This document shows positions 8,607 to 56,988 of a DNA stretch of 57,044 nt, piece after piece. Made by a program: the position numbers and the translations under genes. Positions within the stretch are counted from its first letter, which is position 1, and each line of letters begins with the position of its first letter. The stretch comes from Cyanobacteria bacterium P01_G01_bin.38 (lineage in GTDB: Bacteria > Cyanobacteriota > Cyanobacteriia > Phormidesmidales > Phormidesmidaceae): NCBI GenBank assembly GCA_039180385.1, contig JBCDDJ010000001.1, forward strand, positions 1 through 57,044. The letters are read 5' to 3'. The notes under the pieces were generated by a model. It searched no databases. It was not told the origin of the DNA and saw only the letters and a program-made list of their open reading frames with translations.

Positions 8607-8642
8607 TTCTCAGAACTAATTCAGGCAGTTTCAACAGATTCA

Positions 8643-8951: not shown

Positions 8952-9083
8952 ATGTCTCTTGAGCAGGCTCAGGAATTTCTGATTGAGCAACATCGAAGCA
9001 TGTTAATTCAGAAGCTGATCTTCCAACAACTGTTAAAGCACGAGTGGAATTTAGACATTGATGTCGATCTGGTTGCTAGCTAG
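8952..9083 (+). CDS. NblA-like (phycobilisome degradation protein) short or truncated paralogue, 43 aa
   Basis: MSLEQAQEFLIEQHRSMLIQKLIFQQLLKHEWNLD matches from memory the C-terminal two thirds of NblA (...MS.DQAKDFLVKLYEQM......YQELLKHQWGLD). An in-frame TAA lies 6 codons upstream of the ATG, so the usual N-terminal helix is absent. Confidence 0.4.
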   Translation: MSLEQAQEFLIEQHRSMLIQKLIFQQLLKHEWNLDIDVDLVAS

Positions 9084-41590: not shown

Positions 41591-42213
41591 TTTGACCTCC
41601 TGAAATCAGGTCAGAGCGCAGCGACTTTCAGGACTTAAAAAGGTGACTGTGAATGTAGAGTTTATTCACAGGATTTTTTTCAATATAGCAGTTGCTATCA
41701 GGCTGTCAACCATCAAAGATTCAGATAGATAAATCGCTGAATCTCAACCTCAAGGCTACTTCAGAAATGGATTCAGAGTTTGATCTCTTAACCTTGTGGG
41801 ACATTAATCATGATATTGAAGCCTTACCGTAAAGACATATTTAGAATGGTCTATTTGAATACTTAGAGTCAAAAAAAGCAGTCAGAATAAATTTAAAAAT
41901 ATAGTGCTTATAAACTCTGGGATCAAAATCGTATAAATCAATACATAATCAATCTTTTTGTATTCTCCTGATTTTTGTTTGCCATCTCTGTTAATTGATT
42001 AATCGCCTAGCTTCTCGTAGATTTCCTAATACCAACTTCAGCAAAATAGACCCAACTCGATCGTATTTTAATAGAGCTAATCCATATACTGACGTCAAGA
42101 CGTGTTGATGTCTTCTAGTAGATGCGTTTTAATGGCTGCATATCTGTTCCTGCCTCGGTCAAGATGCCCATCCGTTGAGACAGCTTTGAAAAAACGCACC
42201 GGGAGCAAGTGCT

Positions 42214-42978: not shown

Positions 42979-42979
42979 G

Positions 42980-43423
42980 ATGAATGAGGATGCTCTGGAA
43001 CGGTTAATGCAGCGGAAGCGGCCCAGTGTGCCCCCTCGAACGGATGCGCTGGTACCGACCTCGCCGGTTGTGAAGTCTGGTCAAGGGAATGACACCACTG
43101 ATGAGCCCCCAGGATATACTGACGCTGGTGTGTCTACAGGTGTTGACGTCAATATGTCTACACAGCATGATGAGACGGATTTGCCGCAACTGGTACGGAC
43201 GACGACGCGGTTGGAAGCGCATATTGATAAGGCGCTACGCCATCTCTGTATGGATGAGAAGGTGACGAAGGAGGTGTGGTTTGAGGCGGCTTATCTGTAT
43301 CTGGTGGAGCATCCGAAGGCGATGAAAGCGGTGAATGGGTTGGCGAAGCAGCGATATCAGCGGCGGAAACGGGCGGCGGATTTGAGGAAGTTGGAGACGA
43401 TGCAGAAGCGGTTAAAGGGCTAG
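42980..43423 (+). CDS. putative partition adaptor / centromere-binding protein (147 aa)
   Basis: ATG at 42980, 1 nt after the parA stop. Disordered N-terminus and a basic helical C-terminus (KQRYQRRKRAADLRKLETMQKRLKG). Assignment by position only. Confidence 0.35.
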   Translation: MNEDALERLMQRKRPSVPPRTDALVPTSPVVKSGQGNDTTDEPPGYTDAGVSTGVDVNMSTQHDETDLPQLVRTTTRLEAHIDKALRHLCMDEKVTKEVWFEAAYLYLVEHPKAMKAVNGLAKQRYQRRKRAADLRKLETMQKRLKG

Positions 43424-43571
43424 GATTTTTAATCCGCAGATACTTCTCATCTTCCAAGCATTCAAGGATCACCACAAAATGTAGAGATCACCAACACTAA
43501 TTCTTAATCTTGAAGCAGTAAGGTTTAAAGTTAGTTACTGGAACTTAGGAGATAGTAAACAGTGCATACTA

Positions 43572-46500
43572 TTAACCAGTTTCTTGTAATCCAGCCGCAA
43601 TCGCATCGATAGAAAATAGTGTGCCTCGCAACAATTCACCACGACTGTAGCGTGATTCTCTTCTACCCAAAGACACAGCAACATCGCGATGTTCTCGAAA
43701 GCGTTTAACTAGCTCAACTTGTAAAAAGCCAAGTGGAGCAATAGTTTCTTCTCGAAATTGTAAAGATCGCTGCAAGTCAGGATTGTCATCTAACAATTGT
43801 TCGTGTGATGTGATCAACAAAATTAGATCGCGAGTCAAATTATACTCGCTGACTATTTGCTCAAAAATTGCCTCGAACCGTTTTTGATCCTCGGGTTGGG
43901 ATAGTTGTTGTAAGTAATGATGAGCGATTCGCAAATTTACTTTGGCTAGAGCCATCTCACACTTCGAAACAACCATATGAAAGAATGGCCATTTGTGATA
44001 AAAGGAGCGTAACAGCTTTATATGCTCATCTGGTGCTTTCTCTAAAAAGCCTTGAAGCGCGGTGCCAACTCCGTACCAAGATTGAAGAGAAAACCGAGAT
44101 TGATTCCAACTGAACATCCATGGTATAGTCCCTAGTTCAGCAGTTTTCCCACTTCTGCTCTTCCCAAACTTAGGCCGAGAGCTAATTTGGAGTTGGGAAA
44201 TCTCATCGAAGGGAGTAACTCTATAGAAAAAATCAACAAAGCCTGGCTGTTCATAAACTAGATCGCGATAGGCAGAACTAGCACGCGCAGATAATTCTGT
44301 CATAATTTCATTCCAAGGTTGAATCTCATCATATCCGCTTGGCAGTAAACTTAATTGTAAAACTGCAGATGCGACACCTTCTAAGTTAGATAAGGCCACC
44401 TCTGGTAGAAGATATTTAGCAGCTAAATCTTCTCCTTGCTCTGTAATTTTTATTCGACCATCTATGACTTTCCCTGGCTGAGCAAGAATCGTTTCATGAA
44501 TAAGGCCACCACCACGCCCTATTGAGCCACCCTTTTCATAGAGAATTCTTAGAAATATGCCATGTTTTTCAGCCATTTTCTGTAGAGAATACTGTGCTTT
44601 ATGGATTTCCCAGTTACTACTGAGAAATCCTATATCTTTATTAGTTTCAGAATAGCTAACTAGCAATTCCTGAATAAATATTGGCTCTTCTTGATATGGG
44701 TCTTTGCCCTCTTTTTCCAAAAAGGTTTGATATAAAGGTAAATCAAACAATGTAGACATAACTTTTGTAGCTAGATTCAGATCTTCTAGTGTTTCAAATG
44801 AGGGAACAACCTGAATTGCACTATGCTCTGTAGCAGGGTTATAAAGACTGGCTTCTTTAGCAAGAAGAAGAGCTTCTAAGACATGACTGGCCCGATTGCA
44901 TTGAGAAATAATATATTTTTGACAAATTCCGAGACCAAATTCTTTTTGAAGAGCGGCAATCATGCGAAAGGTTTGAAGGCGTTCATTTGTTTTTTTAGAT
45001 AGAGGTAACATTAAAGCTCCCAAAGGGCGAAGAGACTTTAGTTCCGTTACCAACCACAACACTCGCTCCTCTTCAGTGAGCTCGTTATACCGACGAGGTG
45101 AAAGCTTTAGATATCCAATAATTTCATCTACGGCATTAGTATGAACAGAACAGTTCTGCTTTATGTCCAAATGTGCGAAACTAAACCCAAAAACTTCTAC
45201 TTGGCAGATCAAATCATTGAGCTGCTGACAAACCAAACCGGTGCCTTCAAGGCTCTGCTGAATCAAATATAACTCTGCTAAAAACTCTTCTGCAGAGCTG
45301 TAGAACTGGGGAGAAGTTTCTACTAAATTCTCTGCCTGAGTGTAAATGATCTCATGGAGTTTTTGGCTACGTTCATAGGTGTTGATCAAACGATGTTCGA
45401 TAAAGACCAATTTAAGCCGGTAGGGTTCCTGGCGATAGCGAATAGAATATTGCTCGTACACATCGGGTAGAACTAAACGATCCTCCTCTAGTGATTCGAG
45501 TATCGCTGAGAAAACCTCGCTCCAATGCAATGATGGGCTGAGCAAGCCGGTAAGCTTTCGAACAGAGTCGATATACTTTCGTAATACTAAGTTGCGCTGG
45601 TGACAAGCTGCTTTCCACGTGATTTCAGGTGAAACAGACGGATTACCATCTTGATCTGCTCCAACCCAGGAGCCAAGCCTGCAAAAGTTACGTTTGGGTA
45701 GACGCATATTGCGGTAATTATCTTTAAGTGCTTGATGAAAGCGTTGATAGAGCGAAGGAATTACATCAAACAGTACATCCTGAAAATAATGAAGTGTAAA
45801 ATCTACTTCATCTAATACATGGGGTTTAAACTGATGCAGCTCATCTGTACGCCACCAAAGCGTTAGTTCGTTTATGAAATGTTCTCGCAGATTTTTGACT
45901 TCTGTTGAGGACAAGGAACTTTTATTCATCAATTTCTCTTCGGCTCTATCGATTTTCCGCAAAATCTCGACGGTTTTCCGCTGTTTATCTCGAATTGTGT
46001 ACCGAAAAATCTCTGTTGGATGGGATGTAAATACTAGTTGTACATCTAATCTATCCAAAACTCGCTGCACTTTTTGAGGTGGTACATTCAAACCACGTAA
46101 TTTTGGAAACAAGACTTGAAATTGGGCACTTATTTCATTTCCTTCATTTATAGTACCTGACCTGAATGTATTTTCTTTCAAAGATGTTTTATATTGTTGT
46201 CGAATTCTTTTCTCGAAGCATTGCTCTACAATATTGACTATATGAAAGTAAAGAATCAGAGCCCTTATGAGTCGAATCATCTCCTCCAGACTGAGTTCCT
46301 CAACTACTTTAAGCACATCCAAAGTGCTCTCTTCCAATTCTTTGTTTTTTTGAGAGTATATTGATCGCAAACGTACCATCGAATTCAGTATCTCACTGCC
46401 ACATTCAAGGGCTACGACAGAGTTAACACTATCTTCAATGAACTTGAGAGGATGATTCAGGAAGAAAGGTTCGGTCGACAGACTTTGCAACGCTTCCTCA

Positions 46501-49370
46501 GTTATGGCCTCCCCTACTACTTGTTCGCTTTGCTTTGGAACTTGACGCAACAATACTTCCAATGCTTGCTTGCGCTTTTGCTCGGATTTTTTACGTTCTT
46601 GCTCAAATTGCATCTGCTCTTGCAGCAGTTGGCTCTCTCGTTGTTTTACTTCTAATAACAATTCCTCAGCTTGTTTCTTAGCATTTTTAACTTCTTGTTC
46701 AGTCAGTTGTTGTTCAAGTCTTGCCTCCGTTAACTTTTGACGAAGATCTAGATTTTCTTGATGTCGAATAAGAGGAACCAAATAATCATGAACTAACTGA
46801 TATCGATCAGCGGAAGCTTCTAGTAAGCGCAGCACTATTCCCGAACCAACTAAAATCATTAGAATCAAACGCAATGTCTCCAGATTAAAAATCACACCAA
46901 GCGCTTCTAAATCCTGTGCGAGCTCAGTATGAGTTTTAATAGGGCGAGTATTGTTTTCATCAGTTAATAAATATAAAACTAACCTTGCTACCTGCTCATT
47001 CACATCGCCGCAATCTTTAACAACTTCTTCTAGGAATCTGTTGACAATCTGGTCTTTAGAACCTTTGTCAAGGTATGTTTGTAGAGTACTGATCTTCTCG
47101 ACTTGAAGCTGGGTCCCTAAAACCTGCAACTCAATTGGGAGAACTTGACCATATTCTCCTGCTAAGTCTTTCACAACCCTATTGACCAATTTAGGTTCCA
47201 TACTAAGCTGGGTATCTTCAGTTAATGCTTGAATAACTGATTTAGCATCTTCAGTAGTAAGATTTTCGAGAAAAAATAGAATATCTTTGTGTAAAATGTT
47301 GTTTATTTTCTTTAAATTAACGAGACGGTCATTACATTCTAAAATGCGGTGCAAATAGTCTTCTCGTATCGCCAAAAAAACCTTTACATAATCTATCTCT
47401 AGACAGGCATCTAGAAACTCATAAAACTGCTTTCTTTGATCAGGATCTTGGCAGGCAAAGAAAAACTCTTCAAATTGATCAAGCACCAAAATCGTCACTA
47501 AATTTCGATTCAGAGTATTTTCTTGGAGTTGTCTCAAAATATCTAATGTCGAAATTAGAGGACGATCAGGAACTGATACATTTGGCACCTTTTGGATAGA
47601 TTTCACTAAATGTTGCCCTAAATCCTCGATCCAGTTAGTATAAATTTGAAGAGTAATGATAGTCAGATTACGTGTATCAAGTGAGGAAGAAGACAAAACT
47701 GGGACTAATCCTGCCTGTATTATTGAGCTTTTCCCAACCCCCGAAGGACCGTAAAGGATAGTGAGCCGACAGTCAGTCCTATCCATAATGCGTCTAATTA
47801 AATCTTGAACTTTTTGTTGTCGTCCAGAAGCGATTATTTCTTTGGCAATGCGTTCATCCTTTTTTGCAACAGCTGAGATAGGATCAAAAACAGTTTTTGA
47901 GGGGCGCAATCGGCCAGCACCAATAAATGCTAAGAAACCATATTGTTGCTTAATAGCTTGTGAAAATTCTTTGATATTAAAAGCTTTGAGATATTCTTTC
48001 TGAGCAAAGTATACCTGGCGTAATACATCTAGAATTCGGATATAAAGAAGTGGATCATATTGAGGGTTGGAACTTGTTTTAGCCTTATTTAAGTTATCAA
48101 TTGCCTCGGAGGTTTGATTGAGATGATACTGTGCTTCTGCTAGTAATAATAAATAAAAACTCTCATAGTGCTGTCTTTCCCACTCCAAGTCAACATTGGG
48201 TTTTGAAGGCATTGAATTTGTTGCTAACGCAAGTTCAGCATAATGTTTTGCTGTTTTCCAATTCGAACTTCGTATTGCCACCTCAGCCATTAAGCCATAA
48301 CCATAAGCAAGTCGAACAGGTTCATGATGTTTCTGATGTAAATCAATAGCTGTTTGAGCAATCTCCTGTAATTCGTCAACTGTCTGTTCATTCAATTGAA
48401 CTAATACTTCCCCCCAAGCATTGACGAACTTTGCTGCTAACTCATCGTATTGAGCCTGTTGTAGTTCTCTTACACATTGATGGAAATAGTTTTTTGCCTT
48501 GCGACATGCTATCTGGTAATCTGCTCGATGCGGAGAAACATACTGACGCCACCACAAGCCTAGATAAAATGCAACGCAACTTAAACGTTGGATAGCAGCA
48601 GTAGATTTCTCATCCTTTACGCTTTCATTCCAGATCTTTAAGCTATTTTCATAAAACTGACGAGCGTTAGCTCTTTCGCCAAAAATATCTCTCACTTGCC
48701 CTTGAAGGAAAAATAAACTCGCCTCTAGATCACGACTCAAAGGAGCATTACTGCTTAGGAAATCTGAAGCTGCAAAATCCAGTTCCTTTGCATGACGAAA
48801 ATCAAGAGGTTGATTGAGAGTGACTGTTTTTAGAAATCTACTATCGCCTAAGCTCAAAATCGCGTTGAACACTTTATCTATTGAGCGCTTTAGGCAAGCA
48901 TCTAATTCATCTATCGAGATACTAAATTCTATGGGAATCGCAGCCCAGCTCTTGAAATCAGGAGCTATTTTGGACATTTTCTTTAAAAGAGAATCATTTA
49001 CCCATAAAATCAACGGAAAATCAAGCTCTCGGCGAAATTCCTCGCGAATTTGGTTTGTCGAAATTAGTAATTTGTCGATATCAGTTACCGACTCTAAACC
49101 AAATATCATTAAGGCTTGAGGATGCTGTTCACTCAACTCCTTCTGAATTTCTGTATAAAGTGATCCTGACGATTCCTGCAAATGCAGTTCATAGATTTGA
49201 ATAGAACATAGTTCCTTCAATTTTTCCACCATTTGCTCTCTCAGGTGAGCATAATTACATTTCACTAAATTTAGAGAGAATTCTCCCCGAGAAAGCTCAA
49301 TTGCACGTGCTAAAGTCTTGAGCGATTCCTCATTTGCCAACACTGTTGGATTTTGACTAGAGTTACTCAT
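43572..49370 (-). CDS. 1932-aa fusion: N-terminal conserved module + TPR-like repeats + STAND-type P-loop NTPase + coiled coil + complete PEP-carboxylase-like domain
   Basis: Walker A LYGPSGVGKSS (aa 539-549, nt 47724-47750). Walker B ILVLDQFEEFF (aa 627-637). Coiled coil at aa about 880-945. PEPC signatures: VFTSHPTE (aa 1113-1120, nt 46011-46028), SWVGADQDGNP, LDIKQNCS, VPSFETLEDL, SYSETNKDIG, EKGGSIGRGGG (nt 44505-44531), KITEQGE, IPWMFSWNQSR, C-terminal AAGLQETG. Uninterrupted ORF in DNA of roughly 30-38% GC. Confidence 0.85.
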   Translation of the reverse strand: MSNSSQNPTVLANEESLKTLARAIELSRGEFSLNLVKCNYAHLREQMVEKLKELCSIQIYELHLQESSGSLYTEIQKELSEQHPQALMIFGLESVTDIDKLLISTNQIREEFRRELDFPLILWVNDSLLKKMSKIAPDFKSWAAIPIEFSISIDELDACLKRSIDKVFNAILSLGDSRFLKTVTLNQPLDFRHAKELDFAASDFLSSNAPLSRDLEASLFFLQGQVRDIFGERANARQFYENSLKIWNESVKDEKSTAAIQRLSCVAFYLGLWWRQYVSPHRADYQIACRKAKNYFHQCVRELQQAQYDELAAKFVNAWGEVLVQLNEQTVDELQEIAQTAIDLHQKHHEPVRLAYGYGLMAEVAIRSSNWKTAKHYAELALATNSMPSKPNVDLEWERQHYESFYLLLLAEAQYHLNQTSEAIDNLNKAKTSSNPQYDPLLYIRILDVLRQVYFAQKEYLKAFNIKEFSQAIKQQYGFLAFIGAGRLRPSKTVFDPISAVAKKDERIAKEIIASGRQQKVQDLIRRIMDRTDCRLTILYGPSGVGKSSIIQAGLVPVLSSSSLDTRNLTIITLQIYTNWIEDLGQHLVKSIQKVPNVSVPDRPLISTLDILRQLQENTLNRNLVTILVLDQFEEFFFACQDPDQRKQFYEFLDACLEIDYVKVFLAIREDYLHRILECNDRLVNLKKINNILHKDILFFLENLTTEDAKSVIQALTEDTQLSMEPKLVNRVVKDLAGEYGQVLPIELQVLGTQLQVEKISTLQTYLDKGSKDQIVNRFLEEVVKDCGDVNEQVARLVLYLLTDENNTRPIKTHTELAQDLEALGVIFNLETLRLILMILVGSGIVLRLLEASADRYQLVHDYLVPLIRHQENLDLRQKLTEARLEQQLTEQEVKNAKKQAEELLLEVKQRESQLLQEQMQFEQERKKSEQKRKQALEVLLRQVPKQSEQVVGEAITEEALQSLSTEPFFLNHPLKFIEDSVNSVVALECGSEILNSMVRLRSIYSQKNKELEESTLDVLKVVEELSLEEMIRLIRALILYFHIVNIVEQCFEKRIRQQYKTSLKENTFRSGTINEGNEISAQFQVLFPKLRGLNVPPQKVQRVLDRLDVQLVFTSHPTEIFRYTIRDKQRKTVEILRKIDRAEEKLMNKSSLSSTEVKNLREHFINELTLWWRTDELHQFKPHVLDEVDFTLHYFQDVLFDVIPSLYQRFHQALKDNYRNMRLPKRNFCRLGSWVGADQDGNPSVSPEITWKAACHQRNLVLRKYIDSVRKLTGLLSPSLHWSEVFSAILESLEEDRLVLPDVYEQYSIRYRQEPYRLKLVFIEHRLINTYERSQKLHEIIYTQAENLVETSPQFYSSAEEFLAELYLIQQSLEGTGLVCQQLNDLICQVEVFGFSFAHLDIKQNCSVHTNAVDEIIGYLKLSPRRYNELTEEERVLWLVTELKSLRPLGALMLPLSKKTNERLQTFRMIAALQKEFGLGICQKYIISQCNRASHVLEALLLAKEASLYNPATEHSAIQVVPSFETLEDLNLATKVMSTLFDLPLYQTFLEKEGKDPYQEEPIFIQELLVSYSETNKDIGFLSSNWEIHKAQYSLQKMAEKHGIFLRILYEKGGSIGRGGGLIHETILAQPGKVIDGRIKITEQGEDLAAKYLLPEVALSNLEGVASAVLQLSLLPSGYDEIQPWNEIMTELSARASSAYRDLVYEQPGFVDFFYRVTPFDEISQLQISSRPKFGKSRSGKTAELGTIPWMFSWNQSRFSLQSWYGVGTALQGFLEKAPDEHIKLLRSFYHKWPFFHMVVSKCEMALAKVNLRIAHHYLQQLSQPEDQKRFEAIFEQIVSEYNLTRDLILLITSHEQLLDDNPDLQRSLQFREETIAPLGFLQVELVKRFREHRDVAVSLGRRESRYSRGELLRGTLFSIDAIAAGLQETG

Positions 49371-50667
49371 CTTTAAACCCTTCGCTTTCTACTAAGGCAG
49401 GATTTATATCAAACCATCTATCATCTCTTTTGTCTCTGTATTCAAACACAAAAAGGCTGCGGAGAAGTGCTTGATACTCGGGCTCCTCACTTATCATCTT
49501 TTCTTGAGAAATGTGACGAAGCAATTGCCATTGCTCATCACTGACAGATAGTTCCAAATCTCCTCGATAACGTTTAATCACAGCTTCTAGACAATTACGA
49601 GAAATAGGAGGGTCTATTTGCTGTAAACAACTGTAAAGCAATACCAATAAATTTCGAACATGACCTCCACTAATACAGCAAAGACGCTTCAATGTCTCTA
49701 AACTATCAAATACCTCAGTTGCTTGCTCTATTCGTTGAAGCGAATTTAGGCCAGGGAATGCCCTTGCCAATACCATCTGCTGTAACAGTGCAATTCCTTC
49801 CTTATTTTCATCACCCTTTCTGGATTTGACTGGCACCATTGGGAGAAGTAAAGGTTGAATCCCGAAACGATTGGTCAACTGTCCAAAGTTATTCGAGAAA
49901 ATCAGACTAAGTGGAACCGTATAAACCAAATGACATTTCAGTTGTTGTAGTTGATCTCCTCGATCTATAAACAGATATTCTGTTTGGGAACGACCTGAAG
50001 CCGTAGGCCTATTATCAATTCGGTCAAGATTGTCAATAATGACAACCAGCCCTTTCTTACCTTGTTGTTTTAATCTCTTTTGAGTAGGCTCTAACAACTC
50101 TCGATTCATTGCATCTAAAAGATTGTTTGTTCGCGGCTCCAGATATTGCCTGAGACTCTTACGCAACTCAGGACTATCCTTAGTCTTAGCCGTGATTTTA
50201 CCAATAATCACTGACAACTCTGCTTCAAACCCTAAATCCAGTGAAGGGATTTTTTTAGCAAGTTCGGCAAATAGGTCAGCAAAACCTCCCAAATAGGGAT
50301 GCAGTTGAGCTTCTTCTAAGCTTTTTGTCACATGTAAAGCAATAGCTAAAAGTATATCACTGATATCTACATCACCAATATCTAGAGCTTTATTCGACTC
50401 AAAATAAACGACATAGAAGTCTTTCTGTTCCAAATCAGTCTTTAGTCGTAGTAGCTCTGTCGATTTTCCACTTCCGATATGCCCAGTAAAAAGCTGGCAG
50501 TTTGGTTCGTCCTCTGACAAAGTAATAGTTCTTTCCAGTTGATGGATGATATTACTATCTCGAACTGGAGAGAAATCAATGTAGTACTGTCGATCTTCTG
50601 GTCTTCCAACCATCAATGTTTTGCTAGGATTGCAAGCTTTGAAAAATTTTGAAACATTTAGAGACAT
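49363..50667 (-). CDS. P-loop NTPase (434 aa) translationally coupled to the STAND-PEPC gene
   Basis: Walker A TGHIGSGKST (aa 61-70), Walker B LVVIIDNLD (aa about 206-214), with an insert of about 140 aa between them (KAP-like spacing but no TM helices). The stop overlaps the downstream start in ATGAGTAA (8-nt overlap). Confidence 0.75.
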   Translation of the reverse strand: MSLNVSKFFKACNPSKTLMVGRPEDRQYYIDFSPVRDSNIIHQLERTITLSEDEPNCQLFTGHIGSGKSTELLRLKTDLEQKDFYVVYFESNKALDIGDVDISDILLAIALHVTKSLEEAQLHPYLGGFADLFAELAKKIPSLDLGFEAELSVIIGKITAKTKDSPELRKSLRQYLEPRTNNLLDAMNRELLEPTQKRLKQQGKKGLVVIIDNLDRIDNRPTASGRSQTEYLFIDRGDQLQQLKCHLVYTVPLSLIFSNNFGQLTNRFGIQPLLLPMVPVKSRKGDENKEGIALLQQMVLARAFPGLNSLQRIEQATEVFDSLETLKRLCCISGGHVRNLLVLLYSCLQQIDPPISRNCLEAVIKRYRGDLELSVSDEQWQLLRHISQEKMISEEPEYQALLRSLFVFEYRDKRDDRWFDINPALVESEGFKDE

Positions 50668-51081
50668 ACTTGTTCATTAAATCCTTAGTTTACAACAGTT
50701 TATCTCTAAAGGTCTAATTGGCTGCTCTGAATTTAAGAACGGCTATCCTGATCGTAATTGAAAGCAAATACTACAGCTTTAGTACACGATTATTGCTCAA
50801 GTAAACTCAGTTTATATAGTGAATGTACGAATCCTTCCGGTATTTGTTCTGATTGACATAGTTAATGATTAACTATTTAGAGAGCTAGTCTATTCTGCCT
50901 CGCACCATACTCTTTTAGATAAGTTTAAATTCAGTACGGCAAATCAATATAATTTTGGCATCAAGTGGCTTAAAATCCAGAAACCCTAGTTAGGATACAG
51001 TGTAATAGTCTATTTCTAGGTTCCTCCATAACCTAGCTATTTGATGTGTGCTACAGACAAATATTAAACCTCTAGCAGAAA

Positions 51082-53937
51082 TTATCCACTGGTGGAATTG
51101 AGCCTTAAATCAGATAGCACTACTTCATGAGATACCCACCAACTTGGTCCTCTGATTGTTGCCATCTCACCAACAATTTCTTCGATTTTCACCCGATTTA
51201 ATCCTTTTAACTGCCTCAACCCTTTCCCCACATATTGACAAATATCCCCTACCTTCAACCGCCGCTCACCCATCCCCACGTCTACCACCTCAGTCTCTGG
51301 ATTCTCCCCCTCAGTAGACACTCTATCTATCTGTAGACCTTCAGTAGACGCCCCATCTACTGTCCGTATCCTATCCATATTAGCCCCTTCAGCCATTTCG
51401 GTAGACAAGTAGACACCCTGCCTCATTTCCACCGCAACCACCCCGTCTACCACCCCATCCTGAGCCTTCTCAACCCCGTCTACCCGTCTACCATTTCCTT
51501 GAAACCCAAATTTATCAAGCTTTTCAGCAGTAGACACCCCATCTACCCCTCCCTCCTCATCGTCTACCCCGTCTACCGTCGCCCGCCACTGCAACCGATT
51601 CCCCATCCCCCTGGTCTCCCCATACCCCATTGCCTCCAACTCCCGAAAATGAGACCGAATCACATCCGAACTCGCCTTCCGTAAACTCCGCTCATAATTC
51701 CGCACATCCTTCGCCCGTAGCCAACCCCGTACCCGCGACAGCCGAATCAACTTTGTGTAGACCGGCTCCAACGCCCCGTCTACCGTATCCCCCTCCGCAT
51801 ACAATAATTTCACCTGACCAATAAACCACCGCGCCAGCTTGATTGCCGCCGTCATCGTCTGGGCCGACACCGCCTCCGCCGGTAGACAGCCCGCCACTGA
51901 CGCATTCAGACAATGCAAGATCAACGCCAGCCGTCCCGTGTACCCCTGCATCTTTGAATAAACTGCCTGCAAACCCTGATGCGTCTCCGTCACCCGCCGC
52001 TGATCCAACTGGTCATACCAATCTGCAAACAGCGTCTTCGCCTCGGGGGTGAGCCCATAACACCGGGGCGTTAACCCCACCAACTGTCGGTAGACACCAT
52101 ACAGTCGCTCCGAAATGTCATACCGCACCGTATTGCGCGGAAACGGCGCAGGCTTTAGCGGCAGTAGACACCACAGAAACCGTGCCCACTGACCACTGGC
52201 ATCGGAGAAATCGCCCATCATCTCCCGCAAGATATCCGGCTGGATAGTCCCCGTAATGCTGAGGCTGGTGCGCGGAATGCTAATGCGAACACCGCTGGCC
52301 CGATCCACCTTCAAGCCCGACCCATCAAAGGCCGTCAGCAGCGACTCCTTATCGTTACCCCGCCCATTTCGATACTGGTTCTGCCCCTTAAAGAGCCCTG
52401 CCAGCTCATCCGGCGTCACTAAAATCCCCCGCGTCGGCTGCTGCGACTGAATTCTTGCCAGCGCCTCTCGGGTCGCATCCGAGGTGTGATACTCCCGTGG
52501 GGTAGGTTTCCGGGGGCGATCGCATCTATCCTCCTTCTTGGTCAGCTCCCATTCCCGCAGCTCCACCTCATATTCTGAGACCGCCCAGTCATAGTCCTGA
52601 TCCGCCTCTTCCTGCAATCGCGATAAGGGCTTCAGAATCTGCCGCTGGATGGGACTTTTCTTACTGCCCGAGGGAGCCACCAACCCTGTAAACAGAATCG
52701 GCGGCACATAGAAGCCCATCCCCGCATCAATTTCCAGCTCCGTCCCCATCTGGAGCAGCGAGGCCGCCACCGGCAGCAGGGTCACCAGCATGGCCGCTGG
52801 GGTGGCCCCAATCCAGTTGGCAATGCGAGTCAGCGGTTCCGCCAGGTCGGGGTGGAGATAGTCGCTGAGTTGCAACTCGTAATCGCCAATCTTCAGGAGT
52901 TGACTGATTTCAGCGATGCGATCATCTCTTTCTTCTGTCTGCTCCAGCTCCGCCTGGATCGGCTTAATCAAACTCCAGAGATCCCTGGCCGAGAGCCCCA
53001 CCTCCCGATGCCACTGCACCACCTGCCCCGACAGCTCCAGTTCAGAGGGGGCCTGGGCCAGATAGTCTCGAATCTGGGCCTGGAGCGCTGGCACATTCAG
53101 GGATTGGCCTGCTCCTGGCGGGTCAGGGGCGAGTTCTCGCCGTGCCCCCACCGCTGCCCGAATTTGCTCCGCCGTTGCCCCATCCGCAATCCAATCGGCA
53201 ATGTCCAGCCCACCATGCTTGGGTAAATTCTGCCAGCGCCAGCTATCCGGGTAGACATAGCACCACTGTGCCTGGGGAAAGTCCTCATAGACCTCCGCCA
53301 TGTGGGCCAGCCCCACCTGATCCTGATCGGGGCACAGCACCAGGCGAGCATCTTTCAGATCCGCGTTATAGTTCCCATAGCTGCGATATTTTTTGGACCC
53401 TCCCAGTGTGGTCGTCGCCGGAATCCCCAGCTGCCAGAGCGCATCGGCGCAGCCTTCCCCTTCCACCATCCAGATCGGTTGTCCCGCCGCGATCGCACCC
53501 TGCACCTCCCGATAGCGATAGATCGGCACCTGCTGCTTAACCTCTGGGGTGAGCCCTTTGACCCACCGTTGCCCGTCCCAGCGCTGTTGCACAAAATACT
53601 TGGAGCCATTGCCCTGATCTACTCGGGTCAACTTCACCAGCGGTTGACCGTCCCGGCTGGGGTAAAAATAATCCTGTTTGCGGCGGGGCCGTACCGGCTT
53701 GGCGGGCTCGGCAGTCGCTGCGAAGTATTGTCCCCACAGGCCATCAGCGGTTACGCCCCGGTAGACATAGCCCGCTACCTGCGCGTCCTGATCAATGTGG
53801 GTGTGGCAGAAGACCACCTCCTTATTCCAGCGGCAGTCTTGATCTTTGGTGCGATCGCAAATCGGGCAGGGGTGCGATCGGCCTGAATATTGGTACTGTG
53901 CCATGGTCAGCTCCTGATGGGTTAGGAGCTGGGCCAT
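51082..53937 (-). CDS. Zn-finger / Toprim primase fused to a helicase-like (DUF3987/P4-alpha-like) domain; replication protein of the element
   Basis: CPICDRTKDQDCRW...FCHTH zinc ribbon. Toprim IWMVEGEGCADAL and LCPDQDQVG. P-loop-like GLVAPSGSKKSP. The C-terminal tail has VDG repeats. Confidence 0.6.
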   Translation of the reverse strand: MAQLLTHQELTMAQYQYSGRSHPCPICDRTKDQDCRWNKEVVFCHTHIDQDAQVAGYVYRGVTADGLWGQYFAATAEPAKPVRPRRKQDYFYPSRDGQPLVKLTRVDQGNGSKYFVQQRWDGQRWVKGLTPEVKQQVPIYRYREVQGAIAAGQPIWMVEGEGCADALWQLGIPATTTLGGSKKYRSYGNYNADLKDARLVLCPDQDQVGLAHMAEVYEDFPQAQWCYVYPDSWRWQNLPKHGGLDIADWIADGATAEQIRAAVGARRELAPDPPGAGQSLNVPALQAQIRDYLAQAPSELELSGQVVQWHREVGLSARDLWSLIKPIQAELEQTEERDDRIAEISQLLKIGDYELQLSDYLHPDLAEPLTRIANWIGATPAAMLVTLLPVAASLLQMGTELEIDAGMGFYVPPILFTGLVAPSGSKKSPIQRQILKPLSRLQEEADQDYDWAVSEYEVELREWELTKKEDRCDRPRKPTPREYHTSDATREALARIQSQQPTRGILVTPDELAGLFKGQNQYRNGRGNDKESLLTAFDGSGLKVDRASGVRISIPRTSLSITGTIQPDILREMMGDFSDASGQWARFLWCLLPLKPAPFPRNTVRYDISERLYGVYRQLVGLTPRCYGLTPEAKTLFADWYDQLDQRRVTETHQGLQAVYSKMQGYTGRLALILHCLNASVAGCLPAEAVSAQTMTAAIKLARWFIGQVKLLYAEGDTVDGALEPVYTKLIRLSRVRGWLRAKDVRNYERSLRKASSDVIRSHFRELEAMGYGETRGMGNRLQWRATVDGVDDEEGGVDGVSTAEKLDKFGFQGNGRRVDGVEKAQDGVVDGVVAVEMRQGVYLSTEMAEGANMDRIRTVDGASTEGLQIDRVSTEGENPETEVVDVGMGERRLKVGDICQYVGKGLRQLKGLNRVKIEEIVGEMATIRGPSWWVSHEVVLSDLRLNSTSG
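51280..51576. repeat. cluster of 14 GTCTAC/GTAGAC (2 as ATCTAC) hexamers, iteron-like
   Basis: Copies start at 51280, 51314, 51333, 51344, 51355, 51401, 51409, 51445, 51478, 51486, 51530, 51541, 51562 and 51571. Eight are in one orientation (consensus CCCC[G/A]TCTACC) and six in the other. Two more lie at 51757 and 51778. Confidence 0.7.
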
Positions 53938-55557: not shown

Positions 55558-56727
55558 TCAAAACTCTGGCACATCAAGTTTGCGCTTCTTAGCTGCGTAA
55601 TACTTATAAATCACCTCAGGAGAGTTACCTACCAATCGAGCCACATCCTTTGCATCCATTCCAGCCTCTAACGCCAGTGTGATAAACGTATGGCGTGTTT
55701 GGTAAAGCTTTCGATATTCGAGATTGAGACCTTTGAGAACTTTTGCCCAGGTGCGATTTCTAAAATTGTTGAGATCGATAGCCTTACCCTCTGGAGAAGG
55801 AAAGACAAAGGTTTCTGAGGTAACTTTGTCAGGCTTGATAGAACACAGTAACCTTCTCAGTGGCTTATTGCATGGAAATATTCGTTGTTCCTGCGTTTTC
55901 AAACCATCTCGGATTCGCTTGCCAGTTTCTGTTCTGATCAATGCCTGAGAAAAAGTAATTTCCTTACATTTTTTTGAAATATACTTCCAGGTAAGCGCAG
56001 ATGCTTCTGAGGGCCGACAACCAGTTGAGAACAAAAACTTAATGAGCGCTGTATAATAACTATGCTTAAAGGCAGATGATCTAGGGCTAAACTGATCGGT
56101 TTCGATAGCTTGAATGATTGCATCCCGCTCTGAGGCTGAAAAGGGATTGATATCGTTCAAGCCATCTGTTGAAACTGATTTCGGCACCTTGATCTTAGCA
56201 GCCATACCGAGGAACGGATTGTGCTCAATGAATCCAGAATCAATTGCCCAGTCACAACAGGCTGAGATGCGAGTAATCAAACGTTTACTGGTATCTAGAG
56301 AAAGATGAGCCAAAATATAATCTCGCATTTCACTGGCGCGGCTTAAATCGTGAGTTGGGAAGCGAGCAATATGATTGGTGTAGGGGCCATAGGTATAGCT
56401 CATCGTGTTTGGAGAACATTGAGGTCGCTTAAATTCTATGAACTTGGGCCACAGGTCAGCCAGATTTAGCTCGGCTGATTGGGTGTTTGCATCATATTCA
56501 GGCTTATACCTGGCAAAAGTAGGGTCGAACCTGTCGAAGGCAATGTCCGATTCAATCAGTTTGGCTTTTGCTTCAGCAGCCCGACGATTAATCGTCGTAT
56601 CAGGAAGCCCCGTACTCAAATAGTGGCGCTTACCAATATAGGTAAAGACCAACTGAAGTCGATCATTAGAGGACTTAATCCGGACAGTACCTTTAGACGC
56701 TTTGTGCTTTTTCGGGGCCGAGGTCAT
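55558..56727 (-). CDS. int: tyrosine recombinase / phage-type integrase
   Basis: 389 aa. C-terminal catalytic region ...GCRPSEASAL... LYQTRHTFITLALEAGMDAKDVARLVGNSPEVIYKYY (R..H..R..Y pattern). Adjacent to the 3' end of a tRNA gene. Confidence 0.85.
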   Translation of the reverse strand: MTSAPKKHKASKGTVRIKSSNDRLQLVFTYIGKRHYLSTGLPDTTINRRAAEAKAKLIESDIAFDRFDPTFARYKPEYDANTQSAELNLADLWPKFIEFKRPQCSPNTMSYTYGPYTNHIARFPTHDLSRASEMRDYILAHLSLDTSKRLITRISACCDWAIDSGFIEHNPFLGMAAKIKVPKSVSTDGLNDINPFSASERDAIIQAIETDQFSPRSSAFKHSYYTALIKFLFSTGCRPSEASALTWKYISKKCKEITFSQALIRTETGKRIRDGLKTQEQRIFPCNKPLRRLLCSIKPDKVTSETFVFPSPEGKAIDLNNFRNRTWAKVLKGLNLEYRKLYQTRHTFITLALEAGMDAKDVARLVGNSPEVIYKYYAAKKRKLDVPEF

Positions 56728-56874
56728 GATGGTGCCTCCTTGCTCAGTACAAAATACCCGCCTGGATTTACCCCAATCCTACCCCAATAAATGAACTAAA
56801 TTGGCCAAAAATGACCCAAAAAATGCTCTTGAGTACAGACACGAGCACTTATCTTGGCGGTCATCAAGATCGTG

Positions 56875-56908
56875 AAGGCCCCTGAAATCAATTGATTTCA
56901 GGGGCCTT
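56875..56908. repeat. perfect 34-bp palindrome between the integrase region and the tRNA 3' end
   Basis: AAGGCCCCTGAAATCAA|TTGATTTCAGGGGCCTT. No convincing U-tract in either direction. Possible tRNA terminator or recombination-arm site. Confidence 0.6.
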
Positions 56909-56917
56909 TGTTGGGAA

Positions 56918-56988
56918 GCGGGTGAACGGACTCGAACCGTCGACATTCAGCTTGGGAAGCTGACGTTCTACCACTGAACTACACCCGC
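56918..56988 (-). tRNA. tRNA-Gly (anticodon CCC), CCA not encoded
   Basis: Sense strand GCGGGTG-TA-GTTC-AGTGGTA-GAAC-G-TCAGC-TTCCCAA-GCTGA-ATGTC-GACGG-TTCGAGT-CCGTT-CACCCGC folds into a canonical cloverleaf with a 7-bp acceptor, 5-bp anticodon stem, U33 and A37. Confidence 0.9.

What the first reader, a model, noticed from the sequence alone, without database searches (positions are those of the whole stretch)
43572..50667. Candidate novel conflict/defence module: a P-loop NTPase translationally coupled to a STAND NTPase fused to a full-length PEP-carboxylase-like enzyme
What the sequence shows:
- Two minus-strand genes overlap in ATGAGTAA, so they are probably translationally coupled.
- Gene 1 (49363-50667) is a 434-aa P-loop NTPase: Walker A GHIGSGKST, Walker B VVIIDNLD, with about 140 aa between them.
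- Gene 2 (43572-49370) is one uninterrupted 1932-aa ORF. It has a conserved-looking N-terminal module (about 170 aa), TPR-like helical repeats (aa about 200-480), a STAND-type NTPase (GPSGVGKSS; ILVLDQFEEFF), a helical region, and a charged coiled coil of about 65 aa.
- From about aa 975 to the last residue it aligns by eye with the entire length of bacterial PEP carboxylase. Shared elements are the N-terminal helix LSLEEMIRLIRALILYFHIVNIVEQ, TSHPTE, SW.G.D.DGNP, PSFET, YSETNKD.G, GGSIGRGGG, TEQGE, IPW.F.W.Q.R, and the C-terminal ..ETG in place of ..NTG.

Established background: STAND/NLR-like NTPases fused to an effector domain form a recurrent architecture of bacterial anti-phage and programmed-death systems (Avs, bNACHT and related). 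Such systems are often carried as cargo on mobile elements.

Inference: I know of no described system in which the effector position holds a central-metabolism enzyme such as PEPC. A sensor-gated, oligomerisation-activated PEPC could crash the PEP pool, which feeds glycolysis, MurA/peptidoglycan and shikimate entry, or flood the cell with oxaloacetate as an abortive-infection output. Alternatively the pair could be a regulated anaplerotic enzyme unrelated to defence.

Context supporting recent horizontal acquisition: AT-rich cargo inside an ICE, two NTPases, and no HIP1 sites that I could see.
Basis: partly seen in the sequence, partly recalled or inferred. Interest (0 to 1): 0.92.

Follow-up and report, generated by a model that had tools for sequence, protein, structure and literature searches.

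The report
PEPC-derived domain fused to STAND NTPase
A mobile element in a cyanobacterium carries a two-gene NTPase switch in which the usual WD40 sensing domain is replaced by a whole PEP carboxylase whose active site has been rewritten, so the enzyme fold is probably a sensor or bait, not the metabolic weapon first proposed.

Summary
In detail: two overlapping minus-strand genes encode a 434-aa P-loop NTPase and a 1932-aa protein with nSTAND1 (E 4e-38) and a full-length PEPcase match (E 3e-294).

The interpretation needs revising.
- **Known family.** The pair is a diverged copy of a two-gene module found in at least 587 cyanobacterial species genomes. Gene 1 is 58-70% identical to its homologues and gene 2 aa 1-905 is about 50% identical.
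- **Sensor slot.** In that family the C-terminal slot holds WD40 propellers, occasionally CHASE2. The PEPC therefore sits in the sensor position, not the effector position.
- **Rewritten active site.** The PEPC module differs from the family at 14 of 71 near-universal positions (controls: mean 1.0). Thirteen of the 14 lie in or next to catalytic motifs, including R396K, D543E, H579Y, R581K and R713G.
- **No sign of defence.** Neither protein has a recognisable toxic effector, PADLOC finds nothing, and relatives lie in stable chromosomal synteny, often beside ftsQ/ftsZ.
- **Unique and not an artefact.** No other such fusion appears among about 15 billion proteins. A second assembly reproduces it, and codon usage is uniform across the junction.

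Best reading: an ICE-borne STAND switch with a PEPC-derived pseudoenzyme as its input domain. It is a new variant of a known kind, of moderate to high interest, with function unproven.

The parts
49363..50667 (-). Gene 1: 434-aa P-loop NTPase (KAP/ATPase_2-like). It is the conserved partner of nSTAND1 proteins in cyanobacteria.
   Evidence: ORF. Weak Pfam hits to AAA_16, nSTAND5 and ATPase_2; KAP scores 21.1 bits against a cut-off of 20. It is 62% identical to the 434-aa gene upstream of the N. punctiforme nSTAND1-WD40 gene. There are 3629 homologues, at most 70% identical, and relatives in at least 587 species genomes.
50458..50484 (-). Gene 1 Walker A, GHIGSGKST (aa 62-70).
   Evidence: Alignment. 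The G..GKST residues are invariant in alignment A2; position 66 is S here and C in the orthologues.
50023..50046 (-). Gene 1 Walker B, VVIIDNLD (aa 208-215).
49363..49370 (-). 8-nt overlap ATGAGTAA between the gene 1 stop and the gene 2 start, consistent with translational coupling.
   Evidence: Coordinates. Relatives of the same type overlap by 4 nt.
43572..49370 (-). Gene 2: 1932-aa multidomain protein, ordered AAA+-like domain, TPR, nSTAND1 NTPase, coiled coil, PEPC-derived domain.
   Evidence: The identical protein is found on a second assembly, Logan contig SRR22824324_117145, which is 100% identical to window 42090-51420.
48837..49349 (-). N-terminal alpha/beta domain (aa 8-178). It has an AAA+-like fold but no Walker A, so it is a possible adaptor or degenerate NTPase.
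   Evidence: AlphaFold model, pLDDT 85.5. Foldseek gives weak AAA+ core hits to ORC, RFC, ClpA and RuvB with TM about 0.5 and E of 7e-4 or weaker. No Pfam hit.
47943..48803 (-). TPR-like helical solenoid (aa 190-476).
   Evidence: Model with pLDDT 82. Foldseek top hits are LGN/Pins, KLC and Rap TPR domains, E down to 7e-7.
46698..47825 (-). nSTAND1 NTPase module (aa 516-891), with Walker A GPSGVGKSS (K547) and Walker B LDQFEEFF (D631).
   Evidence: Pfam PF20703, E 4.2e-38. The motifs are near-invariant in the family alignment.
46491..46757 (-). Charged coiled-coil linker (aa about 872-960). Homology to the WD40 relatives ends inside it, at about aa 905.
   Evidence: BLASTP against P0008 ends at query aa 905. 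Sequence shown.
43575..46478 (-). PEPC-derived domain (aa 965-1932). The PEPC fold is full length but the active and allosteric sites are remodelled. It is proposed to be the input (sensor or bait) module.
   Evidence: Pfam PEPcase covers profile positions 2-919 of 919, E 2.6e-294. It aligns to P0121 residues 29-1028 at 56% identity. It deviates at 40 of 207 cyanobacterial-invariant columns and 14 of 71 universal columns. It is 55-59% identical to cyanobacterial PEPCs, which are 67-100% identical to one another.
43424..51081 (.). Low-GC two-gene cassette between the ICE partition genes and the primase-helicase gene.
   Evidence: GC profile. Cassette GC3 is 0.30-0.34 against 0.49-0.70 in the backbone genes, and codon-usage r is 0.84-0.86 within the cassette against 0.04-0.55 with the backbone. 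No HIP1 sites.
55558..56988 (-). Tyrosine integrase (55558-56727) and tRNA-Gly (56917-56988), marking the right end of the ICE that carries the cassette.
   Evidence: Pfam Phage_integrase and Arm-DNA-bind_2. ARAGORN tRNA-Gly. T4SS and T4CP genes at 28.9-40.7 kb. VirB4-like relatives on 134 cyanobacterial plasmids.

Best explanation
The two genes are an ICE-borne, diverged copy of a two-gene NTPase module that is widespread in filamentous cyanobacteria. That module consists of a KAP/ATPase_2-like P-loop NTPase and an nSTAND1 STAND NTPase.

In this copy, the C-terminal input slot of the STAND protein normally holds WD40 beta-propellers. It has been replaced by an entire PEP carboxylase recruited from a cyanobacterial ppc. 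Afterwards the substrate pocket, metal site, lid loop and Asp/malate site of that PEPC were rewritten, while the fold was kept.

The PEPC-derived domain therefore most likely acts as a pseudoenzyme input module. It would bind either a PEP-like or C4-acid-like metabolite, or a protein that normally targets host PEPC (an integrated bait). It may also impose PEPC-type oligomerisation. Ligand binding would switch the central nSTAND1 NTPase and drive NTP-dependent assembly. Output would pass through the N-terminal AAA+-like/TPR module and the translationally coupled partner NTPase.

Shown here: the architecture, the family relationship, the slot equivalence, the active-site remodelling, the uniqueness of the fusion and its location on a mobile element.

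Inferred: the sensor role, the switching mechanism and the nature of the output. Whether the switch serves defence or conflict, or ICE or host physiology, remains open. I lean slightly towards a surveillance role because it is recently acquired ICE cargo.
For: 1. Family membership. Gene 1 is 62% identical to the N. punctiforme partner gene, and gene 2 aa 1-905 is 50% identical to the adjacent nSTAND1-WD40 protein. In 74 of 80 gene-1 loci a homologue of the gene 2 N-terminal half lies immediately downstream.
2. Slot equivalence. In relatives the region after the coiled coil is WD40 or CHASE2 at residues 932-1205. Here PEPC starts at aa 965. The literature treats WD40, TPR and FGE domains at the STAND C-terminus as sensors (PMC13581612, PMC10907252).
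3. Remodelled catalytic centre. The module deviates at 40 of 207 cyanobacterial-invariant columns, against a control mean of 0.3 and maximum of 5. It deviates at 14 of 71 universal columns, against a mean of 1.0 and maximum of 11. Thirteen of those 14 lie in or next to catalytic motifs, and 7 of 13 pocket residues are changed against 7 of 58 others, Fisher p = 0.0024. No PEPC shares more than 2 of these derived states.
4. Fold still under selection. The Pfam match is full length, 57 of 71 universal residues are kept, and there are 0 stops against 105-156 in the other frames.
5. Accelerated branch. The module is 55-59% identical to cyanobacterial PEPCs, which are 67-100% identical to one another. 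It is 31.2% identical to E. coli PEPC, lower than all 120 cyanobacterial PEPCs at 33.3-35.8%.
6. Old fusion, recent transfer. GC3 and codon usage are uniform across gene 1, the N-terminal half and the PEPC part (r 0.84-0.86), and unlike the ICE backbone.
7. Not an assembly artefact. A second assembler reproduces 9.3 kb spanning the junction and both borders.
8. No enzymatic effector is recognisable anywhere else in the pair.
Against: - No experiment or ligand prediction supports sensing.
- Many substitutions are conservative (R->K twice, D->E, S->T, M->L). H138, E506, K546, R587, R699, R725, K773 and R832 are retained. Some catalysis, or an altered reaction such as PEP hydrolysis, cannot be excluded.
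- The function and output of the parent family are unknown, so 'sensor slot' rests on analogy with other STANDs.
- The protein is a singleton, so selection cannot be measured by dN/dS.
- Enzymes in the C-terminal position of STANDs have been proposed to be effectors, for example GT4 domains (PMC8195603).
Confidence: 0.48

Rival explanations
1. The PEPC domain is a catalytically active effector. It is gated by the STAND NTPase and depletes PEP or floods the cell with oxaloacetate as an abortive-infection output.
For: The PEPC match is full length and above the NCBIfam equivalog cut-off. H138, R587, E506, K546, R699 and R725 are retained. The pair is ICE cargo. Aravind's group has proposed C-terminal enzymatic effectors on STANDs, such as GT4 (PMC8195603). 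Mutant PEPCs can retain bicarbonate-dependent PEP hydrolysis (my recollection of Terada & Izui 1991, cited in PMC11832675).
Against: Residues invariant in 137-140 of 140 PEPCs are changed: R396K, D543E, G580E, R713G, H579Y, R581K, L504S, M538L. The lid loop is also altered. The slot is occupied by WD40 or CHASE2 sensors in relatives. There is no PADLOC hit. Homologues are not in defence islands.
Confidence: 0.13
2. A non-defence metabolic role. The fusion is a working, divergent anaplerotic PEPC, or an enzyme with a shifted reaction. The NTPase modules regulate its assembly or activity, and the ICE carries it as a fitness cargo.
For: The parent family sits in housekeeping-type synteny next to ftsQ/ftsZ, GlcD/GlcF-like genes or ribD-like genes. 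STAND NTPases include metabolite-sensing regulators (general knowledge; PMC7159879 text). Many active-site changes are conservative.
Against: The active-site argument is the same as above. The Asp/malate inhibitor site is also altered: N881E, R880Q, N833E. Nothing in the parent family suggests regulation of an enzyme. It would be the only such PEPC among about 15 billion proteins.
Confidence: 0.1
3. An evolutionary accident. A fortuitous in-frame recombination joined an nSTAND1 gene to a ppc paralogue, and the product is functionless or decaying cargo.
For: It is a singleton across all collections searched. Invariant catalytic residues have been lost. Several relatives in Nostoc appear fragmented.
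Against: The 5.8-kb frame is intact in AT-rich DNA, where the other frames have 105-156 stops. About 80% of invariant PEPC residues are retained, and the changes cluster in the active site instead of being spread randomly. Both NTPases keep intact Walker motifs. Codon usage is uniform across the junction, which implies long co-residence.
Confidence: 0.12
4. Assembly chimera. The nSTAND1 gene and a ppc gene from different genomes were joined by the assembler.
For: The sequence comes from a metagenome-type contig, and the fusion is unique.
Against: An independent Logan assembly of run SRR22824324 gives a 9331-bp contig that is 100% identical across the junction and both GC borders. The PEPC part is only 56% identical to any known PEPC and carries unique substitutions, so it is not a housekeeping ppc from a co-occurring genome. 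Composition is uniform across the junction.
Confidence: 0.02

Closest known systems
Cyanobacterial two-gene module: 434-aa KAP/ATPase_2-like NTPase plus nSTAND1-WD40 protein (for example the N. punctiforme PCC 73102 pair in CP001037, loci L002/P0008). Uncharacterised experimentally.
   Same: Gene 1 is 58-70% identical. Gene order, strand and start/stop overlap are the same. Gene 2 aa 1-905 is collinear at about 50% identity, covering the AAA+-like domain, TPR, nSTAND1 and the start of the coiled coil.
   Different: The C-terminal roughly 1000 aa is a PEPC-derived domain in place of WD40 propellers. This copy sits on an ICE, not at a syntenic chromosomal locus. None of the 80 loci examined, and no other protein found, has PEPC there.
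Antiviral STAND/NLR-like proteins (Avs, bNACHT, Apaf-1-like WD40 STANDs; nSTAND1 clade of Kaur et al. 2021).
   Same: A central STAND NTPase with a variable C-terminal module. nSTAND1 was defined in predicted counter-invader systems (PMC8195603). WD40, TPR and FGE sensors are known in this superfamily (PMC13581612).
   Different: There is no recognisable N-terminal effector and no PADLOC match. The relatives' genomic context is not defence-like. No phenotype is known.
Plant paired NLRs with integrated decoy domains (RRS1/RPS4, RGA5/RGA4; Cesari et al. 2014, as cited in PMC11702601).
   Same: Two adjacent NTPase genes, one of which carries a C-terminal domain derived from a host protein that is not part of the NLR core. 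This is an analogy of logic only.
   Different: There is no sequence relationship. Gene 1 is not a full NLR. A bait function is speculative. In bacteria the integrated-decoy idea is so far only a hypothesis (bNACHT11, PMC11702601).
Bacterial/cyanobacterial phosphoenolpyruvate carboxylase (Ppc, PF00311, EC 4.1.1.31).
   Same: The whole-length fold matches, at 55-59% identity to cyanobacterial PEPCs. H138, W248, E506, K546, R587, R699, R725, K773, R832 and the C-terminal G are retained.
   Different: It is fused behind 964 aa of NTPase modules. Fourteen of 71 universal residues are changed, including R396K, L504S, M538L, D543E, H579Y, G580E, R581K and R713G. The C-terminal QNTG is QETG. It lies on an accelerated branch.

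Membership tests
PEP carboxylase (PF00311 / NF000584, EC 4.1.1.31) | Full-length match to the family profile above the curated cut-offs. | tested here: met
   Pfam scores 979 bits and covers profile positions 2-919 of 919. NCBIfam scores 858.6 bits against a cut-off of 815.
PEP carboxylase (PF00311 / NF000584, EC 4.1.1.31) | Catalytic His138 (TAHPTE) and Arg587 (GRGGxxGRGG loop), shown by mutagenesis to matter (PMC11832675, citing Terada 1991 and Yano 1995). | tested here: met
   H1117 and R1619 are conserved. The neighbouring A137 is changed to S.
PEP carboxylase (PF00311 / NF000584, EC 4.1.1.31) | Invariant substrate and metal pocket residues R396, L504, M538, D543, H579, R581, R713. Their roles are from my recollection of Kai 1999/2003 and Matsumura 2002; their invariance was tested here. 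| tested here: not met
   The query has K, S, L, E, Y, K and G at these positions, against 136-140 of 140 canonical residues in diverse PEPCs.
PEP carboxylase (PF00311 / NF000584, EC 4.1.1.31) | Conserved C-terminal ..RNTG and the Asp/malate-site residue N881. | tested here: not met
   The query ends GLQETG. N881 is E (N in 120 of 140) and R880 is Q. K773 and R832 are kept.
PEP carboxylase (PF00311 / NF000584, EC 4.1.1.31) | Carboxylase activity: PEP + HCO3- -> oxaloacetate. | not testable with these tools
   Needs an enzyme assay.
STAND NTPase, nSTAND1 clade (PF20703) | Profile match above the gathering score, with intact Walker A and B. | tested here: met
   132.4 bits against a cut-off of 27.1. 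GPSGVGKSS and LDQFEEFF match the family's near-invariant columns.
STAND NTPase, nSTAND1 clade (PF20703) | C-terminal repeat-type sensor (WD40, TPR or FGE) following the NTPase. | tested here: not met
   The C-terminus is a PEPC-derived globular domain. Relatives have WD40 or CHASE2.
Cyanobacterial gene1 + nSTAND1-WD40 two-gene module | Adjacent, co-directional partner NTPase of about 434 aa, and collinear homology of the large protein's N-terminal roughly 900 aa. | tested here: met
   62-70% and about 50% identity respectively. Seventy-four of 80 loci are paired, and the overlap type is the same.
Known anti-phage defence systems (Avs, bNACHT, PADLOC catalogue) | Match to a catalogued defence protein model. 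| tested here: not met
   PADLOC best E-values are 0.014 for gene 2 and 1.2e-4 for gene 1 (PDC-S20, partial P-loop match).
Known anti-phage defence systems (Avs, bNACHT, PADLOC catalogue) | A recognisable cell-killing or signalling effector domain. | tested here: not met
   The N-terminus is an AAA+-like domain plus TPR. There is no nuclease, protease, TIR or SIR2 domain.
Known anti-phage defence systems (Avs, bNACHT, PADLOC catalogue) | Homologues enriched in defence islands or mobile elements. | tested here: not met
   In 80 loci, neighbours are ftsQ/ftsZ (34-36 loci), GlcD/GlcF-like genes, or ribD-like and aminotransferase genes. There are no hits in viral contigs. Only the window's own copy is on an ICE. 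A DndE-domain gene with an adjacent SMC/AAA_23-type ATPase lies about 5-6 kb upstream in 20-24 mostly Microcoleus loci; this is noted but is lineage-specific.
Known anti-phage defence systems (Avs, bNACHT, PADLOC catalogue) | Protection against phage or plasmid challenge. | not testable with these tools
   Needs an experiment.
KAP-family P-loop NTPase (PF07693), for gene 1 | Profile match, and the characteristic transmembrane insert in the P-loop domain (Aravind 2004, from memory). | tested here: inconclusive
   21.1 bits against a cut-off of 20. Relatives are annotated KAP, ATPase_2 or AAA_22. The TM insert was not examined.
Integrative conjugative element (context) | Tyrosine integrase next to a tRNA gene, plus T4SS/T4CP genes. 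| tested here: met
   The attL repeat was not found in the window.

The most novel reading that the evidence does not exclude
The PEPC-derived domain is a bacterial 'integrated decoy'. It would be a catalytically disabled copy of a host central-metabolism enzyme built into an NLR-like STAND protein, which works with a paired NTPase. It would detect a phage- or plasmid-encoded factor that binds or modifies host PEPC. That would be the first case in prokaryotes where the host origin of an NLR bait is directly identifiable, and it would imply that mobile elements manipulate cyanobacterial anaplerotic carbon fixation.
Probability: 0.18. Interest if true: 0.85.

Novelty: new variant of a known kind. 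Interest (0 to 1): 0.6.

Why it matters
Bacterial STAND/NLR-like proteins are known to sense through repeat domains (TPR, WD40) or lectin-like domains. A whole metabolic enzyme fold in that slot, with its active site selectively rewritten, would extend the known range of sensor modules to pseudoenzymes derived from host metabolism.

It would also offer a tractable test of two ideas that are currently only hypotheses in bacteria: integrated decoys, and metabolite-gated NLR switches.

The work also shows that the parent two-gene NTPase module is near-universal in filamentous cyanobacteria, is often syntenic with ftsQ/ftsZ, and is entirely uncharacterised. Its role may therefore not be immunity at all, which is a caution for annotation pipelines that equate STAND with defence.

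Tried and rejected
- **Other nSTAND-PEPC fusions.** I searched with the full-length protein, the PEPC half and a junction-spanning 1200-aa query against 1.84 billion representatives. I also scanned 80 genome loci, metagenome contigs and viral contigs. None was found.
- **Two long PEPCs.** P0390 and P0454 have N-terminal extensions but no recognisable domains.
- **P0425 as a possible relative.** This outlier PEPC has different substitutions and is only 35% identical, so I rejected it.
- **A conserved third gene (effector).** Clustering of flanking ORFs found none that is universal.
- **Known defence models.** PADLOC gave nothing significant.
- **Identity of the N-terminal region.** Sequence search against the PDB gave nothing. 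Fold search gave only TPR and weak AAA+ similarity.
- **Promoters, terminators and border repeats.** Matches were no more frequent than in shuffles, and there are no flanking repeats.
- **ICE attL.** No repeat of the tRNA region of 14 nt or more occurs in the window.
- **Literature on PEPC residue roles.** Kai and Matsumura were not retrievable. The roles of R396, R581, R713, D543, L504 and M538 are therefore from memory, although their invariance was measured here.
- **The Synechocystis 'Hat' lead.** This WD-repeat protein was linked to inorganic-carbon uptake. The paper is not held, so the lead is untested.
- **SepT as a characterised relative.** It is unrelated.
- **Source organism.** It is not among the GTDB species representatives; the best gene 1 match is 69%. 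Whether the host has its own ppc therefore could not be checked.

Full report
**1.

The window contains the two minus-strand ORFs exactly as described. Gene 1 is 49363-50667 (434 aa) and gene 2 is 43572-49370 (1932 aa). They share 8 nt, ATGAGTAA.

Pfam places nSTAND1 (PF20703, E 4.2e-38) at aa 516-891 of gene 2. It places PEPcase (PF00311, E 2.6e-294) at aa 972-1932, covering profile positions 2-919 of 919. The NCBIfam PEPC equivalog model scores above its curated cut-off, 858.6 against 815. The best solved-structure matches are plant and E. coli PEPC. Against the closest cyanobacterial PEPC, the module corresponds to residues 29-1028, so a complete ppc has been fused.

Gene 1 gives only weak P-loop hits (AAA_16, nSTAND5, ATPase_2; KAP 21.1 bits against a cut-off of 20). 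It has clear Walker A (GHIGSGKST) and Walker B (VVIIDNLD) motifs.

The coding frame of gene 2 has no stop in 1932 codons. The five other frames have 105-156 stops each.

**2. Context**

The cassette (about 43.4-51.1 kb) has GC 0.38-0.40 and GC3 0.30-0.34. It is embedded in backbone genes with GC3 0.49-0.70. It has no HIP1 site between 40298 and 52515, although the window has 26.

The surrounding element is an ICE:
- T4CP, TrbI, an M23 peptidase and a VirB4-like ATPase. The ATPase has relatives on 134 cyanobacterial plasmids.
- ParA, a DUF3987 primase-helicase and an S24/HTH repressor.
- A tyrosine integrase abutting tRNA-Gly.

The host is a cyanobacterium, as shown by a phycobilisome gene and the HIP1 sites.

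**3. Not an artefact**

The identical 1932-aa protein is encoded on an independently assembled Logan contig from run SRR22824324. That contig is 9331 bp and 100% identical to window 42090-51420. It spans the nSTAND/PEPC junction and both GC borders.

Gene 1, the N-terminal half of gene 2 and the PEPC part share codon usage (r = 0.84-0.86). They differ from the ICE backbone (r = 0.04-0.55). The three parts have therefore co-resided in a low-GC genome for a long time, and the ICE acquired them as a unit.

**4. What the pair is related to**

A search of 5.8 billion protein clusters with the full-length protein returned only cyanobacterial nSTAND1 + WD40 proteins of 1300-2100 aa. They match just the N-terminal 45-50% of the query at 43-50% identity. 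The window's protein is the only one combining PF20703 with PF00311.

In N. punctiforme, a 434-aa gene that is 62% identical to gene 1 overlaps by 4 nt the start of a 2012-aa nSTAND1-WD40 gene. That gene is 50% identical to gene 2 over aa 1-905, and homology stops inside the coiled coil. Scytolyngbya has the same arrangement.

Gene 1 relatives occur in at least 587 cyanobacterial species genomes, at most 69% identical, with 3629 protein clusters. In 74 of the 80 best loci a homologue of the gene 2 N-terminal half lies immediately downstream on the same strand. Four of the six exceptions run off the contig within 1.4 kb of gene 1; of the other two, L053 has about 10 kb downstream with no hit, and L067's apparent gene 2 is interrupted in my ORF reconstruction. 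None of the 80 loci contains PEPC-like sequence.

The finding is therefore a variant of a widespread, experimentally uncharacterised two-gene module.

**5. The PEPC sits in the input slot**

In the relatives, the region after the coiled coil (from about aa 930-980) is a WD40 propeller array. In P0035 it is a CHASE2 domain at residues 932-1205. In the window's protein PEPC begins at aa 965.

WD40, TPR and FGE-type domains at the C-terminus of STAND proteins are regarded as the sensors. The N-terminus carries effectors or adaptors (PMC10907252, PMC13581612; nSTAND1 was defined in PMC8195603).

A pLDDT-82 model shows gene 2 aa 8-178 as an alpha/beta domain and aa 190-476 as a TPR solenoid. Foldseek matches the solenoid to LGN/Pins, KLC and Rap TPRs. 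The alpha/beta domain resembles AAA+ cores only weakly (TM about 0.5) and lacks a Walker A.

No nuclease, protease, TIR, SIR2 or other toxic domain is detectable in either protein, and PADLOC finds nothing.

**6. The PEPC module is not a normal PEPC**

Its closest relatives are ordinary cyanobacterial PEPCs of 992-1057 aa, at no more than 56% identity by BLAST.

| Comparison | Identity |
|---|---|
| Fused module vs 120 cyanobacterial PEPCs | 55-58.6% |
| Cyanobacterial PEPCs vs one another | 67.5-99.8% (mean 77%) |
| Fused module vs E. coli Ppc | 31.2% |
| 120 cyanobacterial PEPCs vs E. coli Ppc | 33.3-35.8% |

This is a cyanobacterial-type PEPC on an accelerated branch.

| Conserved column set | Fused module differs at | Leave-one-out controls |
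|---|---|---|
| 207 columns invariant in 120 cyanobacterial PEPCs and E. coli | 40 | mean 0.3, max 5 |
| 71 columns at least 95% conserved in 139 diverse representatives plus E. coli | 14 | mean 1.0, max 11 |

The 14 universal-column changes are L19V, A137S, R396K, L504S, M538L, G540S, D543E, S544T, F578L, H579Y, G580E, R581K, R713G and A714T. Thirteen of them lie in or next to the catalytic motifs. Seven of 13 pocket residues are changed, against 7 of 58 other universal residues (Fisher p = 0.0024).

R396, D543 and G580 are invariant in 140 of 140 PEPCs, and R713 in 139 of 140.

The lid loop is altered (SRPARR to SRPKFGKSR). So is the Asp/malate site (N881E, R880Q, N833E, D775N). The maize lid loop is described as highly conserved in PMC8637149. 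H138, H579 and R587 are cited as important for E. coli PEPC catalysis in PMC11832675. My assignment of R396, R581 and R713 to phosphate binding, of E506 and D543 to metal binding, and of W248, L504 and M538 to the hydrophobic pocket is from memory of Kai and Matsumura and could not be re-read here.

Retained residues are H138, W248, E506, K546, R587, R699, R703, R725, K773, R832 and G883. No PEPC in the diverse set shares more than 2 of the 13 derived states.

The pattern is a preserved fold (about 80% of invariant residues, no disruptive indels, open frame) with a specifically rewritten ligand pocket. That is the signature of a co-opted pseudoenzyme or a changed ligand specificity, not of a housekeeping enzyme and not of a decaying pseudogene.

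**7. Is the family a defence system?**

Direct support is lacking. I clustered the flanking ORFs of the 80 loci and found no universal third gene. There are three kinds of context:
- In 34-36 loci from at least 16 genera (Microcoleus, Trichodesmium, Lyngbya, Limnoraphis, Dapis, Tychonema, Stenomitos, Richelia and others), the pair lies divergently next to ftsQ and ftsZ.
- In Nostocales, another paralogue lies next to GlcD/GlcF-like genes.
- The overlapping-gene type, to which the window's pair belongs (best match L007, 69%), sits at a genus-stable locus in Nostoc among ribD-like, lactamase_B and aminotransferase genes.

Some genomes carry two types. No relative was found in viral contigs.

This is conserved chromosomal synteny, not a defence-island pattern. 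Only the window's copy is on a mobile element. The accessible literature contains no characterisation of the family. It also contains no link between STAND proteins and PEPC.

**8. Uniqueness**

A 1200-aa junction-spanning query was run against 1.84 billion 50%-identity representatives, read exhaustively by HMMER. The protein forms its own cluster. The next hit is a 52%-identical cyanobacterial PEPC, and none of the top 150 matches the nSTAND part. Two longer PEPCs have unannotatable N-terminal extensions.

A metagenome DNA scan with the remodelled region found 37 loci. All have canonical motifs (RAIPW in 37 of 37, HGRGG in 36 of 37), all are at most 68% identical, and none has nSTAND or gene 1 sequence nearby.

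**9. Most likely mechanism**

Shown:
- A STAND switch with two intact NTPases.
- A TPR module.
- A PEPC-derived domain in the input slot.

Inferred:
- The PEPC-derived pseudoenzyme is the input. It would bind a PEP-like or C4-acid-like metabolite, which fits the many conservative changes (R->K, D->E). Alternatively it would serve as bait for a factor that targets host PEPC, and it may hetero-oligomerise with host PEPC.
- Ligand binding would license NTP-dependent assembly of the nSTAND1 module. Output would go through the AAA+-like/TPR N-terminus and the coupled partner NTPase.
- The biological role (ICE-borne surveillance or defence, or physiological regulation) is open.

The rivals are an active-enzyme effector, a regulated metabolic enzyme, a neutral chimera and an assembly artefact. 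They are scored in the rival list. The decisive experiments are enzyme assays with reversion mutants, ligand and partner screens, and genetics on both this pair and the parent family.

**10. Verdict**

The 'effector PEPC that crashes the PEP pool' mechanism and the defence label are not supported.

This is a new variant of a known kind: a STAND NTPase module with an unprecedented, enzyme-derived C-terminal domain. It is a well-documented singleton.

Interest is moderate to high (0.6). It is unusual, mechanistically suggestive and testable, but it rests on one sequence and on a parent family of unknown function.

Noticed in passing
L020-L086 (for example L024:8736-9659 ftsQ, L031:5553-6938 ftsZ): In 34-36 of 80 cyanobacterial loci from at least 16 genera, a paralogous gene1 + nSTAND1-WD40 pair lies divergently next to ftsQ and ftsZ. 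This deep conserved synteny hints at a cell-division or filament-related role for the parent family, not mobile defence.
   Followed up: partly
window 42214-43423: A ParA-type ATPase is followed by a 147-aa ORF. The precomputed table flags that ORF as McdB (PF26392), the carboxysome-positioning partner. My Pfam copy gave no hit. It is probably the ICE partition pair, but its position next to a PEPC-derived gene is a curious coincidence.
   Followed up: partly
P0425 (protein): This is another degenerate stand-alone PEPC of 1011 aa, with E506Q, K546R and a lid-loop deletion that removes R703 and R713. It deviates at 11 universal columns. It is unrelated to the query's module (35% identity), so it may be a second, independent PEPC pseudoenzyme.
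   Followed up: partly
window 20409-26855: A 2148-aa ICE gene has Strawberry-notch/SNF2-like helicase domains (AAA_34, Helicase_C_4, ResIII) and DUF6908. It is likely a conjugation-associated helicase or an anti-restriction-type protein.
   Followed up: no
window 37858-40653: The 931-aa VirB4-like conjugation ATPase has no Pfam hit at E <= 1e-3. It nevertheless has relatives covering over 95% of its length on 134 cyanobacterial plasmids, at 53-61% identity among the 12 best. Current profiles model cyanobacterial T4SS components poorly.
   Followed up: partly
L010, L018, L019, L025, L059, L062: Several Nostoc and Lyngbya loci have short or fragmented gene 2 homologues (343-774 aa) downstream of an intact gene 1 homologue. 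These could be pseudogenised copies or MAG frameshifts.
   Followed up: no
P0035: One relative carries a CHASE2 domain (residues 932-1205) in place of WD40 in the C-terminal slot. This shows that the slot accepts different input modules.
   Followed up: yes
L042:3086-3550, L035:2528-4525: A DndE-domain gene and an SMC/AAA_23-type ATPase gene lie about 5-6 kb upstream of the pair in 20-24 mostly Microcoleus loci. This is the only defence-like neighbour seen, and it is lineage-specific.
   Followed up: no
window 3001-9000: A second lower-GC stretch (0.42-0.45) contains a phycobilisome protein gene (3107-3592), a pentapeptide-repeat gene (5723-6277) and a DDE transposase (7078-8478). It lies to the left of the ICE.
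   Followed up: no
P0390, P0454: Two otherwise canonical PEPC representatives carry N-terminal extensions of 390 aa and 228 aa with no Pfam domain. They could be other uncharacterised PEPC fusions.
   Followed up: partly
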